Of a stretch of DNA of 64,000 nt, positions 4,269-15,428 are shown in pieces (position 1 is the stretch's first letter; every line of letters begins with the position of its first letter). Below the pieces are notes generated by a model. That model was not told where the DNA came from and did not search any database. It saw nothing but the letters and a program-made list of their open reading frames with translations. Source of the stretch: a virus (Duplodnaviria > Caudoviricetes); the IMG/VR virus record IMGVR_UViG_3300037420_002493, positions 10,055-74,054 of that record; one strand, given 5' to 3'. The position numbers and the translations under genes are program-made.

Positions 4269-5708
4269 ATGGCAACTGCAACACAAACGCCACTCAGCAT
4301 TCTAGGTGTAGAACTATTTCTTCCTGGTGTACGCCGGGATAGTCTAGGTCGAACAAAAGAATGGGAGGACTGGGAATTAAATGAAATGGCGAGCTCTTAC
4401 AACTCTGTTGTAAGAGATGTGCATGATGCTCCAGTCTTGATTGGTCACGATGGAAAGACCCTAGAACAAGATCAAGGGCTTCCTGCAAACAGCTACGCAT
4501 CTCCTGAGATGACTCCGCAGGGAGAAGCCTCGTATGCTTGGCTAGAACGCGCCTATGTTGAGAACGGAAAACTTAAAGGCGACTATCGAAAAGTCAATCC
4601 TAGTTTTGCTCAAGCGCTAGAAAACGAGACCTACAAAAAGCGTTCAATTTCAATCTATCCGCGCAACCATCCAGACAATCCCACTCCTGGTAAGCTCAAC
4701 ATTCGCCATGTTGCATACGTTGCCATTCCTGCTGTGAAGGGAATGAAAGATCACGCTTTTGGAGAGGGCAATTTTTTTGAGTTTGAATTTGCTGAATTTT
4801 ACGGTTCTGCGTGGAGCGCGATCGCTCGGCTCATGCAAGGACTGCGCGATCGGATGATTGAAGATGCAGACCTAGAAACTGCTAACGCCACATTTCCCAC
4901 AGAACTGCTGGATGCGATTCAACGACAGGCAAACGACTCTAACGATTACGTCACCGTGAGTCAGTTTGTTGACGCGCTGAACAGTGTTGACGCATTACGC
5001 GCTCAAGTTTCCCAACTATCCATGCTCATGCAAGGCTCTGACCTTGCCTACTCGGAATCAACTATGAATCTCAAGAAAATGATGGCTGACAAGGGAGTAA
5101 CCGCTGTCAAAGGCATTGCTCCTATGGATTTGCAGGCAATTATCAAAGGTGACAAAACCGCCACATCGGAGCAGATGCAAATGATTGCTGACGCTTTAGG
5201 AGTCAGCGTTGATGAGTTAAAACCGAAAACTACCAACATGAGCGAACCAGAAGACTATCAGCAACTCAAGGCGCAAGTTGCCGCCTTAGCCACCGAAAAC
5301 AAACAACTGCGCGACGATCGTGAGCGCGATCGGGTGACGAATTTCGTTGAAAAATTGGTTCAAGAACGCAAGGTTCTCCCTGCTAACAAGGCAGAAGTAA
5401 TTGAACTAGCAATCAGCTTGCCCAATGATAAAACGCTCAACTACAGCGAAGGAACGGGGAGCGTTGAAGCCACACCGCGCGATCGTTATCTCAGCCAGCT
5501 TCAAAAAGGCAAGGAACTCTGGAGCAATTCCCAGATGCCAACCAACCCTTCAGACGCGCCGAACAATTTTAGCGAAACCGCCAAGCTCGAAGGGTTTGAC
5601 GCTGAATCGACCAAAACAGACCAACTGATTAAGCAGCGCATGAAAGACCAAGGCTGTGACTATGCCGAAGCGGTCAATCAACTCATTTCTACTGGCGAAA
5701 TTCGCTAG
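4269..5708 (+). CDS. Mu gpI-like prohead protease/scaffold with internal XRE-like HTH
   Basis: APVLIGH; YKKRSISIY; HVAYVAIPAVKGM; coiled-coil scaffold C-term; directly upstream of capsid genes. Confidence 0.8.
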   Translation: MATATQTPLSILGVELFLPGVRRDSLGRTKEWEDWELNEMASSYNSVVRDVHDAPVLIGHDGKTLEQDQGLPANSYASPEMTPQGEASYAWLERAYVENGKLKGDYRKVNPSFAQALENETYKKRSISIYPRNHPDNPTPGKLNIRHVAYVAIPAVKGMKDHAFGEGNFFEFEFAEFYGSAWSAIARLMQGLRDRMIEDADLETANATFPTELLDAIQRQANDSNDYVTVSQFVDALNSVDALRAQVSQLSMLMQGSDLAYSESTMNLKKMMADKGVTAVKGIAPMDLQAIIKGDKTATSEQMQMIADALGVSVDELKPKTTNMSEPEDYQQLKAQVAALATENKQLRDDRERDRVTNFVEKLVQERKVLPANKAEVIELAISLPNDKTLNYSEGTGSVEATPRDRYLSQLQKGKELWSNSQMPTNPSDAPNNFSETAKLEGFDAESTKTDQLIKQRMKDQGCDYAEAVNQLISTGEIR

Positions 5709-7848: not shown

Positions 7849-8294
7849 TGAGCATTGCCACGATCGAGGCTGACTTAATCACCCGACTGCAAACCCTGGA
7901 AGCCGATCAGAACCTCAAGGTGATTGCGTTTCCCACGAATCCCGATGAGCTGTATCGTCCCCCCTGCGATCGCATTATCGTCGGATTCAACCGGGAAAGC
8001 CTATCTCGTCCGAATACCACGAGCTTTACAGCCCCCATCATTCAAGAACGGCAACTCGACTTTGGCATTTACGTTCAGATTCGAGACCTTCGAGGACGGA
8101 AGCAATCAAACCCAAGGCTGGTTGAGCTAATGGATTTGATTCGAGACCTGATTACTGGGATGCGTCCCACAGGCGACAAGACTCATTGGTTTTACCAAAC
8201 CGCAGGCAGCTTTGTTCAATTAGCCGAAGCGTTTTGGTTGTATTCGATGAACTTTTCCATCTCGGTGCCCTATACCAAACGCGATCGGAGTTAA
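7848..8294 (+). CDS. Neck/tail completion protein, Mu gp37-like
   Basis: IATIEADLITRL; LMDLIRDLITG; position after gp36. Confidence 0.65.
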   Translation: MSIATIEADLITRLQTLEADQNLKVIAFPTNPDELYRPPCDRIIVGFNRESLSRPNTTSFTAPIIQERQLDFGIYVQIRDLRGRKQSNPRLVELMDLIRDLITGMRPTGDKTHWFYQTAGSFVQLAEAFWLYSMNFSISVPYTKRDRS

Positions 8295-10359: not shown

Positions 10360-12177
10360 ATGCCGATCGCAGCTTCAGCAAGAATTGACCTAATCGACTC
10401 TGACCCGAATGTTGTTTCTAACATCCAAGGTGGTCCAGAGCCACAGGATGAATGGCTGCATTTTCGCTTCTCACAGGACTATCCTCAATACCAGCGAATG
10501 CGGCGTGACCCGCATGTTCGGTCTCGCCTAGATAAACGAGTTGATGCAATCCTAGGTCGCAGTGTTTTGGTTGAGGCTCCCAAGAAGCGGGGAGCTGCAA
10601 AAGCCGCAGAGAAAGTTCAGTCCATTCTCGATAAGGTCAAGTACGAAGCGCTTTGTAAGGCGGTACTGAAGTCAGGAATGCTGATTGGATTCAGCGTGCT
10701 GCAAATCGATTTTGTGGAAGATGAGGACGACAAGACTCTACTGATTCCAAAGTGGAAGTTTGTTCCACAATCACGCTTCACCTTTGCCTATCACAAGCCG
10801 GACGATCGGGCAGTTCTAGTGGTCAATGATGATGATCTTGACCCCGCAACCGAGATTTTATTAGTTCATGGCTATGAGCTGAGGCTACTCACCAAACGTG
10901 CTCCTATCTACGGGGAGCGAGTTCCCAAGAACCGATTTCTATGTTTTACGTTTGACTCTGAAGATAGCCCGTGGGGTTTGGGACTGGGCTACTCCATTTT
11001 CCCGTGGTGGGAAGTCAAACGGTGTGCGCTCAAAGCGTGGTTGCTGCACTCCGATCGACAAGGTTCACCACCGACGATCGGAACCACCCCAGCCGACCTA
11101 GACCCCAGCCATAACGACGACCACAAGAAGATCATTGCTGACTTTGAGGGGTTTCTGAAGGCGTTATCTCCGAGCAATTGGGCATCGTTTCCTGAAGGGT
11201 TTACGGCTCAGTTATTGGAAACGATCGGGCAGAGTGGACCAGAGGTGCATCAAGCCCTCATTCGGGAAGCAGACAACCAAATCAGTAAAGTTGTGTTGGG
11301 AGAAGTCCCCTTCTCGGACAAAGACACAGGCAGTTATGCCGCAAATGCATCTCAGGTCGAAGATAGAAGCTCAACCCTGACCGACGGGGATTGCAACCTA
11401 CTGGATGAGCAACTCTATGACGGGTTGTGGTTGCCAACTTTTGAGCTAAACAGCATCGTCGATGATGCCCCGATCGTGCGTCGGGAATCATTCGCAGACA
11501 CGCGCAAAGCCGCCCTTGAGAAGCAGAAGCTAGAGCATTCCAAGGCGGTAGCTGACCGAGACAAAGAACTGCAAGAACTGGGCTATCGTCGCACCGCTCA
11601 GAGTGTACTAGAAATTCATGGTGAAGGGCTGGAGTCGATTCAAACTGACACCGAGAAGCCGCCATTGGTGAGCACGATCGGGGTCGGTGGAACGCAAGCT
11701 CTATTAGGGTTGCTACAGCAAGCGTCGTCTGGAGAGTTGCCGAAAGAGAATGCGGTGGCAGCAATGGTTGCGATGTTTGGGCTTGACGAGAAAACCGCTG
11801 GCGCGATCGTGCCAGAACCGAAGCAAGAAAACTCGCAATCGTCGTCGCTCGATCAGCTTTTTGGAGGAGATACCGCGCCGACGGATACGACTAACTCAGA
11901 TACCCCAGCACCTCAACCGCAGTTTACCGAGCCAGAGTCAGAGCAGGTTGAGACGGTACGGGATGAATTACCCAGCGAGTTTGCCGCAGCCGTTGCAGCG
12001 TTGAGCCGACTGGATACGATCGGGCTTGAGGAATTTGGACTGGTATGGGATGACACGACCGAGTTTGATGAAGCGATCGCAGCGCTAAACCGAATTGAGG
12101 TAGATGGAATAGAGGTTGATATCTCCCTTGACTTTGAGGAGTGGGGGATTTGCCAACCCGATCGTAGTTACTCATGA
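10360..12177 (+). CDS. Portal protein (Mu gp29/DUF935 family) with acidic C-terminal extension
   Basis: YQRMRRDPHVRSRLDKRVDAILG; PWGLGLG; ISKVVLGE; GSYAANASQ. Confidence 0.9.
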   Translation: MPIAASARIDLIDSDPNVVSNIQGGPEPQDEWLHFRFSQDYPQYQRMRRDPHVRSRLDKRVDAILGRSVLVEAPKKRGAAKAAEKVQSILDKVKYEALCKAVLKSGMLIGFSVLQIDFVEDEDDKTLLIPKWKFVPQSRFTFAYHKPDDRAVLVVNDDDLDPATEILLVHGYELRLLTKRAPIYGERVPKNRFLCFTFDSEDSPWGLGLGYSIFPWWEVKRCALKAWLLHSDRQGSPPTIGTTPADLDPSHNDDHKKIIADFEGFLKALSPSNWASFPEGFTAQLLETIGQSGPEVHQALIREADNQISKVVLGEVPFSDKDTGSYAANASQVEDRSSTLTDGDCNLLDEQLYDGLWLPTFELNSIVDDAPIVRRESFADTRKAALEKQKLEHSKAVADRDKELQELGYRRTAQSVLEIHGEGLESIQTDTEKPPLVSTIGVGGTQALLGLLQQASSGELPKENAVAAMVAMFGLDEKTAGAIVPEPKQENSQSSSLDQLFGGDTAPTDTTNSDTPAPQPQFTEPESEQVETVRDELPSEFAAAVAALSRLDTIGLEEFGLVWDDTTEFDEAIAALNRIEVDGIEVDISLDFEEWGICQPDRSYS

Positions 12178-12376
12178 TCGTTGCAGGAGTTGATCTTCAG
12201 TTGGGTTTTGAGGAAGCTTGAGTTGCCAACCCACTCTCAATCTTCAAGCTCGTTGCAGGTTTAGGATCAGGCACTTGCCAACCCACTCTCAATCTTCAAG
12301 CTCGTTGCAGTTGCTGCATTTCAGCAACATACCGACGCCCTTGCCAACCCGCTCTCAGTCTTTATGATCGTTGCAG
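12150..12376 (-). CRISPR. Mini CRISPR array, 4 repeats and 3 spacers
   Basis: Repeats 12150-12186 (degenerate, 37 nt), 12223-12258 and 12275-12310 (identical, 36 nt), 12341-12376 (5 mismatches). Minus-strand repeat CTGCAACGAGCTTGAAGATTGAGAGTGGGTTGGCAA. Spacers 36, 16 and 30 nt. Confidence 0.9.
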
Positions 12377-14316
12377 GGCAACTCCCAAAGCGAAAGCTGG
12401 ATGTGGTTTTGAAGCCGTTTTGACAAGCGCTTTCTTGAAGATCTTGAAGATACCCCAGTTTTGCGGGTTGCTGACTCGCTACAGGTGTCACGAAGTCTAG
12501 CTGTGTCAGGGATTTCAGAATTTACAAGCATCCCTTTTCCTCCACTTGCCTGCGTCCTTCGCAATGTATGCGGATTGCGGGCAGTTCTAGGGATCGGAGG
12601 CACTAACACAACGGTTAATCCCTGACCAGACGAATCCGGTGATCCTTTGGCTGCATCCTCAGCAGGTTCACAAACAGTCGTGACTTGTACTTGACTGTTA
12701 GGCTCTGGCATGAGCAAGCCTTGTCGAATCGCTGGGGCAATTCGCAAGGTTCTGTTTTGGACGGGCATCAACTTGCCACACGTCCCGTAAGTGACAGAGC
12801 TAAGGAAGTTTGCACTTCCCACTCCGTCTCTGTCTCCTCTCCACCCACAACCCCCGTGTTTGGGATTGCAGTAGTAGACGCGGTTTCGCGGCTTGTGCCT
12901 GCGTCCGCATTGAGGGCACACTTGAGAGGTAAAGGCTTCACTGGCTTTCTCGGTTCCGATTCCGCCCGCCAGTTGCATCTTTTCCTCTAAATACTTCGCT
13001 TGGGTGGGCATCTCCCACATGTTGTTTCGAGACACTTGTTTGATGCGACGATTGCCCTTCTTTCTGCCCTTGGGCAATCGGTCCAAATCACCCACGTAAA
13101 TTTTGCCGACCTTACGTTCAACTGCCCAATCGACAGCGGTACGAGTAATGGTGTGGTTGGCATAGTTAAGTCTGATCCGGTAATAATCAGCGGCTTTTTG
13201 CTGACCCATGTAGAGACGATAATCCCGCTTGCTTCTGCGTCTCAAGGGTTTGGTGGATTGCTGATTGAGTGCAATGAGTGAGCGTCCCTTACCATCCAGC
13301 CCTTCTCTACGACGTTGCCGAATCATTCGCCATGCGTACTTGGCATCGCTGCCTGTGCGCTTTTTGCCTTGCCGTTGTCGCTCATTATCTTCTTCCTGCA
13401 ATCTGCGATAGGTAGCCTTCTCCTCAACAGAGAGGTATTGTCGGAATTGCCCCTTAAACACTCGCGCTCTTGCACGATTAATAGCTCGGTAGCGTCCGTC
13501 TCGCTCCCGCTTGAGAGCACAGATATCTTTGCCAGAAATAGTTGCCGTTTCTGCGGTTCCCTCTCCGTTCTGCACGGCAATGACAATGGCACGCTTCTGT
13601 CCAAAGTCTACGGCTGCCACTTGGGTGAGTTCAGGATTCGGTTCAACGGTGTGCTTTGTGCAGAGATGAAGATAGTAATGACCACTGCGAGATTTAGAAA
13701 TCTTAGCGTCACCGTCTAGCACTTTACCCTTTAGCTCTGGAAGTCGCAGCTTCAGTAGATAGGGCTTTGCACCCAGAATTAGCGTGTCTCCTTGGCGCTT
13801 GACGTGTAAGCCGCTGAAAGGAACTGGATAGTAGGACTTGAATCGTTTAGGTAGTTCAGCCTCGTGATCGCCCCGCTTGCGACGAGTAAAACATGCCTTA
13901 ATAGCTGCCTCAAAGGTGCGACAAATCGCATCTGCTGACTGTGCTGGAATGCCATAATCAGGTTTCTTGCTCTTACGGACAGCGATAACCAACCGCTCGA
14001 CACCCTTCTCTTTTCCTTGTTTGGCAGGCTTATTCTCCAACTGCTGAGGGTAGAGACTGTATTCCTGATTGGTGAACGTGCGAGTCAGTTCGTGTGCCCA
14101 TCCAAGCTGGAATAGATTTAAGTAGCTGTTCACCTCGTAAGGTTTGCAGCTTGGGTCAGCCTCTTTTAGGCGCTTGTACTCGTTGCGTTTGTACTGGAGA
14201 TGTTCAACCAACTGGTTATAGATGCGACGACTCGCTGCAAACATTCCTTCCAGCATGACTCTCTGGGTTGGAGTAGGAAAGAATTCAATTGTGAGGGTGC
14301 GAGTCGCTTCCATCAC
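12355..14316 (-). CDS. CRISPR-associated TnpB-derived (Cas12-like) RNA-guided nuclease, rearranged RuvC-II
   Basis: OrfB-type N-term FFPTPTQRVMLEGMFAASRRIYN; RuvC-I AAVDFG; RuvC-II IYVGDL with downstream SEAFTS; Zn finger CPQC..C..C; RuvC-III DRDGVGSAN; adjacent array. Confidence 0.85.
   Translation of the reverse strand: MMEATRTLTIEFFPTPTQRVMLEGMFAASRRIYNQLVEHLQYKRNEYKRLKEADPSCKPYEVNSYLNLFQLGWAHELTRTFTNQEYSLYPQQLENKPAKQGKEKGVERLVIAVRKSKKPDYGIPAQSADAICRTFEAAIKACFTRRKRGDHEAELPKRFKSYYPVPFSGLHVKRQGDTLILGAKPYLLKLRLPELKGKVLDGDAKISKSRSGHYYLHLCTKHTVEPNPELTQVAAVDFGQKRAIVIAVQNGEGTAETATISGKDICALKRERDGRYRAINRARARVFKGQFRQYLSVEEKATYRRLQEEDNERQRQGKKRTGSDAKYAWRMIRQRRREGLDGKGRSLIALNQQSTKPLRRRSKRDYRLYMGQQKAADYYRIRLNYANHTITRTAVDWAVERKVGKIYVGDLDRLPKGRKKGNRRIKQVSRNNMWEMPTQAKYLEEKMQLAGGIGTEKASEAFTSQVCPQCGRRHKPRNRVYYCNPKHGGCGWRGDRDGVGSANFLSSVTYGTCGKLMPVQNRTLRIAPAIRQGLLMPEPNSQVQVTTVCEPAEDAAKGSPDSSGQGLTVVLVPPIPRTARNPHTLRRTQASGGKGMLVNSEIPDTARLRDTCSESATRKTGVSSRSSRKRLSKRLQNHIQLSLWELPCNDHKD
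12434..12470 (-). ncRNA. Candidate anti-repeat (tracr/omega-scaffold part)
   Basis: Minus strand CAACCCGC-11 nt-ATCTTCAAG ATCTTCAAG is collinear with the repeat complement CAACCCAC-5 nt-ATCTTCAAG. Confidence 0.45.
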
Positions 14317-14522: not shown

Positions 14523-14784
14523 GGTGACACTCCCCCTGTGGAATCTGGGCTAATAACTCAGGCGCATCAGCTTCTAGATGAGTAAGATTCTCGTTGACCA
14601 ACCTTCTCCCAGCCCTCCAAGTCTCTTCGGTAGAGGGAAGAATCCGATCGGTCTCAGTGTCTCCTATCTCCTGCCCAAAGGGGTCAAGAACGGCTGTTTT
14701 GTAGCCTCCGATGACTTCGATCGGGCAGATTAAATGACCGCGATATCTAAAGCTGCAACCCCACAGATAAATGTCTTCTCTCAT
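14515..14784 (-). CDS. Hypothetical protein
   Basis: Paralog of 48129-48392 (RGxLI..VLxPFGxEIGDT..APEL). Confidence 0.6.
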   Translation of the reverse strand: MREDIYLWGCSFRYRGHLICPIEVIGGYKTAVLDPFGQEIGDTETDRILPSTEETWRAGRRLVNENLTHLEADAPELLAQIPQGECHRV

Positions 14785-15071
14785 GACTCAACTACTCCAA
14801 TAATCCTGTCTTCGTGAATGGTTTCTACCTCATCTCCTTCGTCTCCACTCTCAAGGTGGTAATCCCATCCAGGCTCACAGTTCTCCGCAAAGGCAATGGC
14901 AACGCGAGTAAACCGACAGCCGCAAATTCTGCCTTCAGCAATCTCGTCTTTGCTGCTCCCTCTCACTTTGTAGCGAACGGTTTGCCAAATCTCGTATTTG
15001 GGCTTTGGAGTAGGGTTACTCAGGTAGTGGTAGAGTTTTTGTTCAAGTTTGGTTAATGCTGCTTTTGCCAT
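14781..15071 (-). CDS. Small SH3/KOW-like protein
   Basis: PKYEIWQTVRY..GRICGCRF..PGWDY. Confidence 0.6.
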   Translation of the reverse strand: MAKAALTKLEQKLYHYLSNPTPKPKYEIWQTVRYKVRGSSKDEIAEGRICGCRFTRVAIAFAENCEPGWDYHLESGDEGDEVETIHEDRIIGVVES

Positions 15072-15074
15072 GTC

Positions 15075-15428
15075 TCAGTCCTCCACAATGTCAGTTTCGT
15101 AAACCTCGATAATCCTGGCATCGGCTTCGATGCGGTAATACCAGCCGGGGTCTTCGCCTCGACCTTGAAGAAAGGCAATACCGACGCGCACGAAATGGAA
15201 GCCACAGACCCGACCTTGTTTAATTTCTGGGTTGTCGTTGTCGTAAGATTTATCGTCGTAAGACGTGTATTGAACGAGTTGCCACAAGTTGTATTTGGGC
15301 TGAGTTCTGGGGTGATTCAGCAACTCTTGCAAGTGCTGCTCAAATTCCTCAACCGGATCTGGCGTCACGCCAGTATTGATAGGGGTGGTCATAAAAACCT
15401 CGTAAATTAGCCCAACTGATAAAGACAA
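15075..15428 (-). CDS. Small SH3/KOW-like protein
   Basis: PKYNLWQLVQY..GRVCGFHF..PGWYY; tandem paralog of 14781. Confidence 0.6.
   Translation of the reverse strand: MSLSVGLIYEVFMTTPINTGVTPDPVEEFEQHLQELLNHPRTQPKYNLWQLVQYTSYDDKSYDNDNPEIKQGRVCGFHFVRVGIAFLQGRGEDPGWYYRIEADARIIEVYETDIVED

What the first reader, a model, noticed from the sequence alone, without database searches (positions are those of the whole stretch)
12820..13610. Effector has a rearranged RuvC-II site (E to G with a substitute Glu) and a long basic insertion
Seen: RuvC-I D (AAVDFG, ~13607) and RuvC-III D (DRD, ~12830) are intact. The canonical RuvC-II E is G (IYVGDL, ~13091), and a Glu sits 51 residues downstream in SEAFTSQ.CPQC (~12938), where ordinary TnpBs have PAYTSQ. 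An Arg/Lys-rich stretch of roughly 100 aa lies between RuvC-I and II. Known: this rearrangement is described in Fanzor1 and some TnpBs that stay active. Inference: an active nuclease from a rearranged-TnpB clade that acquired an array; a binding-only repressor remains possible.
Basis: partly seen in the sequence, partly recalled or inferred. Interest (0 to 1): 0.75.

Follow-up and report, generated by a model that had tools for sequence, protein, structure and literature searches.

The report
Phage Cas12-like nuclease, relocated catalytic glutamate
A cyanobacterial prophage carries a small CRISPR-like RNA-guided nuclease whose second catalytic residue sits in the alternative position known from Fanzor and "TnpB2" enzymes; this probably leaves it an active DNA cutter and makes it an unusual, though not unprecedented, branch of Cas12 evolution.

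Summary
ORF 12355-14316 (minus strand, 653 aa) is a TnpB/Cas12f-fold protein with D237 (RuvC-I), G409 at the canonical RuvC-II site, E460 in the motif E-x6-CxxC, and D495-R496-D497 (RuvC-III).

- **Conservation:** D237, G409, E460 and D497 are invariant in 22 family members (31-62% identity). D237, E460 and D497 are also conserved in all 45 nearest ~400-aa TnpBs.
- **Equivalence to a tested residue:** E460 aligns with E467 of mimivirus Fanzor2, a solved and mutationally proven catalytic residue, at the same G-to-E offset of 51 residues.
- **Origin:** the rearrangement is therefore inherited from the "Ealt/TnpB2" clade, not new here.
- **What the family added:** a 38-92 aa (here about 76 aa) Arg/Lys-rich lengthening of the native helical hairpin; mini-arrays of 36-nt repeats that start at the stop codon (7 of 8 related loci, the eighth with one repeat); and a covarying guide-scaffold RNA inside the ORF's disordered tail.

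An active nuclease is favoured (about 0.7) over a binding-only repressor. I could not measure model geometry because no coordinates are given.

The scan met this family before on other DNA (e1-5343828). I class it as a new variant of a known kind.

The parts
12355..14316 (-). Effector ORF, 653 aa from GTG (652 aa from ATG at 14313, which overlaps the upstream ORF's TGA as TGATG). TnpB/Cas12f fold.
13606..13608 (-). D237, RuvC-I aspartate in strand beta1 (AAVDFG; D-Phi-G type, not DPG).
   Evidence: Invariant in 22 family members and 45 outgroups
13117..13530 (-). Residues 263-400: four long helices (263-294, 297-315, 323-338, 363-400), Arg/Lys-rich. This is a lengthened REC2-like helical hairpin between RuvC-I and RuvC-II, about 76 aa longer than in the nearest TnpBs.
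   Evidence: pN/pS 0.2-0.35
13090..13092 (-). [quoted passage not shown]
   Evidence: Aligned to E of AsCas12f IQMEDL; invariant G
12937..12939 (-). E460, the alternative RuvC-II glutamate just after strand beta5, six residues before the first CxxC.
   Evidence: Aligned to ApmFz2 E467; invariant in family and outgroups
12847..12918 (-). Zinc finger / TNB domain: C467, C470, C483, C490 (second knuckle Cx6C here).
   Evidence: PF07282, E = 6e-11; Cys invariant
12826..12834 (-). D495-R496-D497. D497 is the RuvC-III catalytic aspartate, at the start of helix 496-510.
12355..12726 (-). ORF tail (residues 531-653). It is predicted disordered as protein, and it carries a conserved, covarying omega/tracr-like scaffold RNA. 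The frame stays open to a C-terminal QLx[LFI]W motif.
12463..12470 (-). Anti-repeat CAACCCGC, which pairs with GCGGGTTG in the 3' part of the repeat.
   Evidence: 8-bp helix, columns 344-351 / 473-480. Six of its 8 pairs show compensatory changes and the loci carry different complementary pairs
12341..12376 (-). Repeat 1 (36 nt, 86% identical to repeats 2 and 3). It overlaps the last codons and the stop codon of the ORF.
12311..12340 (-). Spacer 1 (30 nt).
12275..12310 (-). Repeat 2.
12259..12274 (-). Spacer 2 (only 16 nt).
12223..12258 (-). Repeat 3.
12187..12222 (-). Spacer 3 (36 nt).
12150..12186 (-). Degenerate terminal repeat 4 (37 nt). It overlaps the 3' end of the convergent portal gene.

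Best explanation
The ORF encodes a catalytically competent RNA-guided DNA endonuclease of the TnpB/Cas12 superfamily. Its RuvC site is D237 (beta1), E460 (just after beta5) and D497 (start of the last helix). This is the 'D-altE-D' arrangement of TnpB2/Ealt TnpBs and Fanzors, with Gly filling the canonical beta4 position.

The arrangement was inherited from ~400-aa Ealt TnpB ancestors. The cyanobacterial phage/prophage family then did three things.

1. It lengthened the basic helical hairpin between RuvC-I and RuvC-II. I infer that this gives more contact with a longer guide:target duplex, since spacers here are 30-36 nt.
2. It turned the single guide into a mini-array of 36-nt repeats.
3. It kept the guide scaffold inside the 3' end of its own gene.

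The scaffold's anti-repeat pairs with the 3' part of each repeat, and the guide lies 3' of the repeat. Cleavage of a matching DNA next to a 5' motif is inferred by homology.

The likely role is conflict with related phages: spacers resemble orthologues of the phage's own genes but carry mismatches. By analogy with tested Ealt enzymes, little collateral ssDNA cleavage is expected.

Shown here: the residues, their conservation, their homology to a proven site, the fold, the arrays and the RNA covariation. Inferred: activity, target motif and role.
For: - **Conserved acids:** only three acidic positions are conserved in all 20 family members and all 45 nearest TnpBs scored: D237, E460 and D497. 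G409, the four Cys and R496 are also invariant in 22 sequences.
- **Alignment to solved structures:** the profile places E460 on ApmFz2 E467 and G409 on the canonical Glu of Cas12f.
- **Published tests of the equivalent residue:** ApmFz2 E467A abolishes cleavage (PMC10530073). The cryo-EM triad is D324/E467/D501 holding Mg2+ (PMC11832414). Its canonical site is G416, giving the same 51-residue offset (bioRxiv 10.64898/2026.06.23.733943). The motif E-x6-CxxC is the published Ealt definition (PMC10711439).
- **Model:** AF2 has core pLDDT about 90. Beta4 is 403-409, beta5 is 454-458 and a helix starts at 496.
- **Fold matches:** ISDra2 TnpB Z 19.6, Cas12f Z 17-18, ApmFz2 Z 15.3.
- **Phylogeny:** the family is monophyletic next to Ealt TnpBs.
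- **Arrays:** present in 7 of 8 related loci; the eighth has one repeat plus a guide.
- **Scaffold RNA:** 53 of 71 predicted pairs show compensatory changes, including the anti-repeat:repeat helix.
- **Self-like spacers:** they carry mismatches near the repeat-proximal end, as expected if perfect self-matches are harmful.
Against: - No biochemical data exist for this family.
- The tools give no coordinates, so I could not measure whether E460 points at D237 and D497 in the model.
- No adaptation genes are present: no Cas1 in the provirus, and no Cas domains among the Pfam hits listed for neighbouring genes in eight related loci.
- No exact protospacer was found in IMG/VR or JGI metagenomes, so there is no target evidence.
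- The window's own spacer-to-self resemblances are only just above shuffled controls: 22/30 against a null maximum of 20, and 25/36 against 24.
- Some RuvC-intact Cas12 proteins (Cas12m) act mainly by binding.
Confidence: 0.72

Rival explanations
1. Binding-only RNA-guided repressor (CRISPRi-like, as in Cas12m, Cas12k or TldR). The protein binds phage or host DNA through its guides and blocks transcription or replication without cutting. E460 would be kept for folding or RNA processing.
For: - Arrays are very small and there is no adaptation module.
- Spacers resemble the element's own genes. In L004 two spacers match its own early gene at 34/36 and 31/35.
- A regulatory role was proposed for the cyanophage CL131 V-U2 system (PMC6293099).
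Against: - Every catalytic and zinc-finger residue is invariant across 31-62% identity and back into mobile TnpB relatives. From general knowledge of Cas12k and TldR, nuclease-dead lineages lose these residues.
- The self-matches carry mismatches at repeat-proximal positions 2-3 and 4-7. That would weaken binding as much as cutting.
Confidence: 0.13
2. Still essentially a transposon-type or homing TnpB. The nuclease cuts related co-infecting phage genomes at orthologous sites to drive its own inheritance by recombination. The 'array' is a tandem duplication of omegaRNA ends, not an immune memory.
For: - The scaffold lies inside the ORF's 3' end and the first repeat starts at the stop codon, as in omegaRNA.
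- L001 has a single repeat plus guide.
- There is no Cas1.
- Spacers look like orthologues of the element's own genes.
Against: - No TnpA or serine recombinase lies next to the gene in any of nine loci.
- The gene is single-copy in the provirus.
- The neighbourhoods differ between loci.
- Spacers are diverse and 30-40 nt long.

This rival concerns the biological role only. It also requires an active altE nuclease.
Confidence: 0.12
3. The rearrangement is an alignment artefact. Another acidic residue (D410 next to G409, or E435) is the real RuvC-II acid.
For: D410 is adjacent to the canonical position, and E435 is invariant within the family.
Against: - D410 is K in 4 and E in 2 of 20 family members. 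In 45 outgroups it is N in 11 and K in 1.
- E435 is acidic in only 47% of outgroups.
- E460 is E in 65 of 65 sequences.
- The HMM alignment to Cas12f and ApmFz2 is unambiguous around the zinc finger.
Confidence: 0.03

Closest known systems
Ealt / 'TnpB2' / RIIr TnpBs (for example Thermoplasma volcanium TvTnpB; the RIIr clades of Altae-Tran 2023)
   Same: Gly at the canonical RuvC-II site, Glu six residues before the zinc finger, and a D...altE...D triad. These are the closest sequence relatives (about 185 bits and below). TvTnpB is an active TAM-dependent nuclease without collateral activity (PMC10530073).
   Different: Those proteins are about 400 aa and are transposon genes with one guide. 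A Myxococcales cluster has several near-identical copies. This family has 502-848 aa ORFs, an expanded basic helical hairpin, mini-arrays, and a phage or prophage setting with no transposase.
Fanzor2 ApmFz2 (PDB 9B0L)
   Same: A solved D324 / G416 / E467 / D501 site with the same 51-residue Gly-to-Glu offset. E460 aligns to E467. Structural match Z 15.3 over 371 residues.
   Different: ApmFz2 has DPG at RuvC-I (here DFG), an N-terminal NLS extension, a eukaryotic-virus host and IS607 ancestry, and no array.
Cas12f (AsCas12f 8J12/8DZJ) and ISDra2 TnpB (8EXA)
   Same: Best structural matches (Z 17-19.6, TM by target 0.66-0.70). Miniature RuvC + zinc finger + WED/REC architecture, with the guide 3' of the repeat or scaffold.
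   Different: They use the canonical beta4 glutamate. Sequence identity is 12-16%.
TranC 'transposon-CRISPR intermediates' (LaTranC, PDB 9JFO/9JFQ)
   Same: A TnpB-sized effector that uses an omegaRNA-derived scaffold together with CRISPR repeats. Some are phage-borne (bioRxiv 10.64898/2026.03.27.714800).
   Different: Only a weak sequence hit (E = 0.4; Z about 13). The papers read here describe no relocated glutamate for TranC.
Type V-U2 system of cyanophage vB_AphaS-CL131 (gp061)
   Same: A cyanophage-encoded TnpB-like effector next to an array of 36-nt repeats, with no other cas genes (PMC6293099).
   Different: gp061 has the canonical Glu (IVMEDL), DPG at RuvC-I and no alternative Glu. It gives only a local BLASTP E of 4e-5 to this protein and is the long (3.15) midpoint-rooted outgroup branch in the tree. 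It is a separate origin.
Cas12k, Cas12m and TldR (binding-only TnpB derivatives)
   Same: Small or absent adaptation module, and short arrays or single guides.
   Different: From general knowledge of these families, they have lost or degraded RuvC residues. Here all are invariant.

Membership tests
TnpB / Cas12 superfamily | N-terminal OrfB HTH/WED, split RuvC and a zinc-finger TNB domain in the TnpB fold | tested here: met
   PF12323 at residues 2-45 and PF07282 at 441-503. Fold Z 19.6 to ISDra2 TnpB over 331 residues, rmsd 3.3.
TnpB / Cas12 superfamily | Score above NCBIfam guided_TnpB (NF040570) curated cut-off | tested here: not met
   77.3 bits against a cut-off of 100. The protein is a divergent member, recognised only below threshold.
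Ealt / TnpB2 (rearranged RuvC-II) | Non-acidic residue at the canonical beta4 position | tested here: met
   G409 is invariant and aligns to the Cas12f catalytic E.
Ealt / TnpB2 (rearranged RuvC-II) | Glu six residues upstream of the first CxxC (E-x6-CxxC), followed by a second Cys pair and the RuvC-III Asp | tested here: met
   E460-AFTSQV-C467PQC; D497. The second knuckle here is Cx6C rather than CxxC.
Ealt / TnpB2 (rearranged RuvC-II) | Alternative Glu placed at the metal site in 3D | not testable with these tools
   Model m53ead58c8151 puts E460 right after beta5, but no coordinates are returned. Support comes only through homology to ApmFz2 E467.
pro-Fanzor (Yoon 2023) | DPG motif at RuvC-I together with Ealt | tested here: not met
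   The motif here is D-F-G. Only P0025 in the family has DPG.
pro-Fanzor (Yoon 2023) | IS607 serine-recombinase TnpA association | tested here: not met
   No recombinase lies adjacent in nine loci. One tyrosine integrase lies nearby in L008.
Type V CRISPR-Cas effector (Cas12, V-U grade) | RuvC effector with an evolutionarily conserved adjacent CRISPR array, downstream of the gene | tested here: met
   Arrays of 4-10 repeats start at the stop codon in L002, L004, L005, L008, L009, L010 and L011, and in the window.
Type V CRISPR-Cas effector (Cas12, V-U grade) | crRNA-guided interference against invaders | not testable with these tools
   No protospacers found. Needs experiment.
Type V CRISPR-Cas effector (Cas12, V-U grade) | Adaptation genes (cas1, cas2, cas4); optional for V-U, V-F and V-K | tested here: not met
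   No Cas1 in the provirus, and no Cas domains among the Pfam hits listed for genes of the related loci. Cas2 and Cas4 were not searched for separately.
Type V-U2 (as in cyanophage CL131) | Sequence kinship with the V-U2 effector and a canonical RuvC-II site | tested here: not met
   BLASTP E = 4e-5, local only. gp061 has the canonical E and no Ealt.

The most novel reading that the evidence does not exclude
This is a bona fide CRISPR-type, array-using effector lineage that arose inside the relocated-glutamate (TnpB2 / pro-Fanzor-like) branch. [quoted passage not shown] If true, the effector would be a compact (about 520-aa core) cis-cutting nuclease with no collateral activity.

Its gene tail would also be dual-coded. 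It specifies the guide scaffold RNA and, at the same time, a disordered peptide ending in QLx[LFI]W. That motif resembles a beta-sliding-clamp-binding motif and could tether the nuclease to replicating DNA.
Probability: 0.3. Interest if true: 0.78.

Novelty: new variant of a known kind. Interest (0 to 1): 0.55.

Why it matters
The relocated RuvC-II glutamate is known and active in Fanzors and TnpB2. It has been presented as the mark of a branch distinct from CRISPR Cas12 (PMC11832414). A conserved, array-associated phage family with that site would add an independent TnpB-to-CRISPR transition from this branch.

It would also give a natural test of what the rearrangement does in an immune or conflict setting, for example loss of collateral cleavage. 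It would add a compact candidate editor as well.

The gene's tail shows how a guide scaffold and a translated frame can share the same DNA.

The finding's central point, the rearrangement itself, is inherited and already described, so the surprise is moderate.

Tried and rejected
- **Model geometry:** Structure prediction returns no coordinates and /data holds none, so I could not measure distances from E460 to D237 and D497.
- **Clamp binding:** The clamp-motif idea is untested.
- **Protospacers:** exact searches with spacers 1 and 3 in IMG/VR and JGI metagenomes found nothing.
- **Scaffold RNA family:** no Rfam family matches it. The single-sequence fold is not better than shuffles (z = -0.9), so the RNA evidence rests on covariation only.
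- **Cultured phages:** none carries a close homologue. The best hits are 24-33% identical TnpBs of Clostridioides and Geobacillus phages.
- **CL131 V-U2:** rejected as the same family.
- **Other candidate acids:** D410 and E435 rejected as the RuvC-II acid.
- **Foreign domain:** the insertion is not one. Language-model neighbours of residues 258-402 are OrfB_IS605 fragments.
- **Published catalogue:** the supplement of Altae-Tran 2023, which lists V-U6 to V-U45, is not held. I cannot say whether this family already has a V-U number.
- **Outgroup taxonomy:** mostly unavailable, because the sequences are metagenomic.
Full report
**1. Observation**

The ORF 12355-14316 on the minus strand gives 653 aa from GTG. 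An ATG one codon later overlaps the upstream ORF's stop as TGATG, which suggests translational coupling at the end of a run of small minus-strand genes.

- D237 (AAVDFG): 13606-13608.
- G409 (KIYVGDL): 13090-13092.
- E460 (SEAFTSQVCPQC): 12937-12939.
- D495-R496-D497: 12826-12834.

Pfam finds the Cas12f1-like TNB zinc-finger domain and the OrfB HTH domain. NCBIfam's guided_TnpB model matches residues 11-505 at 77 bits, below its cut-off of 100.

**2. Is the rearrangement real?**

A word-index search found 23 homologues of 38-62% BLASTP identity. In the cleaned 22-sequence alignment, at 31-62% alignment identity, these residues are invariant: D237, G409, E460, D495, R496, D497 and Cys467/470/483/490.

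A profile of the family searched against PDB sequences gives two key alignments:
- '..GkvyvGdl..' lies on AsCas12f 'GTIQMEDL', so G409 sits on the canonical glutamate.
- '..vekaSErfTSqtCPkCG' lies on Cas12f 'KIDPQYTSQRCSECG', so E460 sits on Pro. The same segment lies on the mimivirus Fanzor2 chain 9b0l_P 'VVNVNEYLTTKTCSNCG', where the aligned Glu is residue 467.

The literature fixes what that residue is. ApmFz2 E467A abolishes cleavage (PMC10530073). The cryo-EM structure shows the triad Asp324/Glu467/Asp501 holding Mg2+ (PMC11832414). The canonical position in ApmFz2 is Gly416 (bioRxiv 10.64898/2026.06.23.733943). The Gly-to-Glu offset is therefore 51 residues in both proteins.

E-x6-CxxC is the published definition of the alternative glutamate, Ealt (PMC10711439). 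RuvC-I here is D-F-G, not the DPG of pro-Fanzors.

**3. Where does it come from?**

An exhaustive profile search of 1.84 billion representatives gave about 15 clusters of the family proper (287 bits or more). Scores then drop to about 185 bits for ordinary 390-480-aa TnpBs.

Of 45 such neighbours aligned, 44 have D/G/E/D at the four positions and one has D/S/E/D. Among all acidic positions of the RuvC region, only D237, E460 and D497 are conserved in 20 of 20 family members and 45 of 45 neighbours. D410 and E435 are not.

A maximum-likelihood tree (quick search) makes the family monophyletic (SH-aLRT 100, stem length 0.85) beside these TnpBs. The relocated glutamate is therefore ancestral. It was not acquired with the array.

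**4. The insertion**

The distance from the RuvC-I Asp to the Gly is 95-103 residues in the neighbours. It is 133-187 in the family and 172 here. That is an excess of 38-92 residues, about 76 here.

The AF2 model has mean pLDDT 75.9 and about 90 in the core. It shows four long helices at 263-294, 297-315, 323-338 and 363-400, between strand beta3 and strand beta4 (403-409). K+R is 28-33%. The region is under purifying selection (pN/pS 0.20-0.35).

Language-model neighbours of this part are OrfB_IS605 fragments. It is a lengthening of the native helical hairpin, the 'REC2' of PMC10711439, and not a foreign domain. I infer that it contacts a longer guide:target duplex. This fits the general trend of REC accretion in Cas12 evolution (PMC10691335).

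**5. Fold**

Foldseek's best matches are AsCas12f (TM by target 0.66-0.70). VIA-align gives ISDra2 TnpB Z 19.6 (331 residues, rmsd 3.3), Cas12f Z 17-18 and ApmFz2 Z 15.3 (371 residues).

In the model, beta5 is 454-458 with E460 just after it, and D497 opens helix 496-510. This matches the description of the rearranged site as RuvX-like, with the Glu on beta5 (PMC10691335). No coordinates are returned, so the side-chain geometry remains untested.

**6. Arrays and guide RNA**

On the minus strand the window has 36-nt repeats at 12376-12341, 12310-12275 and 12258-12223, and a degenerate one at 12186-12150. The spacers are 30, 16 and 36 nt.

Eight related loci were fetched. Seven have arrays of 4-10 repeats that begin at the effector's stop codon. 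L001 has one repeat-like unit followed by a DUF932 gene.

The ORF tail (residues 531-653) is modelled as mostly disordered: pLDDT is below 50 for 535-548 and about 28 for 558-653. Its DNA tells a different story from the core:
- The three codon positions diverge equally (0.39/0.39/0.42), against 0.28/0.23/0.56 in the core.
- Synonymous divergence is lower than in the core (0.32-0.49 in the eight closer locus pairs, against 0.69-0.81).
- pN/pS is about 0.7-1.1. The constraint is therefore on the nucleotides.

RNAalifold on eight loci finds 71 pairs, 53 of them with compensatory changes. These include an 8-bp helix between an anti-repeat (window 12470-12463, CAACCCGC) and the 3' part of the repeat (GCGGGTTG). 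The loci carry different complementary pairs, and six of the eight base pairs show compensatory changes. No Rfam family matches.

The frame nevertheless has no stop in any of nine loci, although tail lengths range from 318 to 657 nt. The other two frames have 0-20 stops. The last residues, QLx[L/F/I]W, vary by synonymous or conservative codons. The tail therefore looks dual-coded.

**7. Nuclease or repressor?**

For the nuclease reading: the catalytic triad, R496 and the zinc finger are strictly conserved. Tested relatives with the same site cut DNA.

Spacers also bear on this. In L004 two spacers match an early gene of the same element at 34/36 and 31/35. The differences are at repeat-proximal positions 2-3 and 4-7, and they look like orthologue-type substitutions. 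In the window, spacers 1 and 3 resemble the phage's own genes at 22/30 and 25/36, just above shuffled maxima of 20 and 24.

This pattern fits guides aimed at related phages, with the element's own copy spared. It does not prove that reading. No exact protospacers exist in the collections searched, and no Cas1 is present.

A repressor role (0.13) or a homing role (0.12) remains possible.

**8. Comparison and novelty**

Phage-borne TnpB-derived V-U systems are known in cyanophages. CL131 carries V-U2 (PMC6293099). Its effector has the canonical Glu and is only distantly related.

Altae-Tran et al. report about 50 independent TnpB-to-Cas12 transitions and RuvC-II alterations 'of TnpB (or Cas12)' (PMC10691335). 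Their supplement is not available here. P0004 has been in NCBI as part of assembly GCA_014695875.1, so the family may already have a V-U number.

Schargel et al. describe the rearranged site as unique to Fanzor and TnpB2 and separate from the Cas12 family (PMC11832414). This family is a counter-example in architecture.

The family is restricted to cyanobacterial phage-like contexts: Leptolyngbya, Trichocoleus, Floridaenema and uncultured cyanobacteria. The window itself is a 74-kb IMG/VR provirus carrying a single copy.

An earlier report of this scan (e1-5343828) described the same family from the Leptolyngbya locus.

**9. Verdict**

- Class: new variant of a known kind.
- Interest: moderate (0.55).

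Noticed in passing
window 12355-12726 (minus strand): The last ~123 codons of the effector ORF appear dual-coded. All three codon positions diverge equally and synonymous sites are unusually conserved, which indicates RNA-level constraint. Yet the frame has no stop in nine loci whose tails range from 318 to 657 nt.
   Followed up: yes
window 12383-12400 (minus strand); C-termini of P0003-P0025: The ORFs end in a conserved QLx[L/F/I]W(D/E/S) peptide after a disordered linker. Codon variation there is synonymous or conservative. It resembles the bacterial beta-clamp-binding motif QL[S/D]LF.
   Followed up: partly
L004:8087-8122 and 8231-8265 against L004:4833-4894: In a related element, spacers 2 and 4 match overlapping sites at the start of its own early gene (4646-4912, minus strand) at 34/36 and 31/35. 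The mismatches cluster at the repeat-proximal end.
   Followed up: partly
L001:7867-7934 (Leptolyngbya sp. FACHB-541; same as IMG/VR L013): This family member has only one repeat-like unit, ending in CTGGCAG, followed directly by a DUF932 gene. This is a single-guide, omegaRNA-like state of the same system.
   Followed up: partly
window 12259-12274 and 12150-12186: Spacer 2 is only 16 nt, while spacers in related arrays are 30-40 nt. The terminal repeat is degenerate and overlaps the 3' end of the convergent portal gene (10360-12177).
   Followed up: no
window 14781-15071 and 15075-15428 (minus strand): Two adjacent small ORFs upstream of the effector are paralogues. They share motifs (KYEIWQTVRY and KYNLWQLVQY) and a 55-nt repeat at 71% identity. 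Neither has a PHROG match.
   Followed up: no
window 12847-12870 (minus strand): The second zinc knuckle is Cx6C (CNPKHGGC) here and in about half of the family, and CxxC in the rest. This is a 4-residue insertion inside the zinc finger.
   Followed up: no
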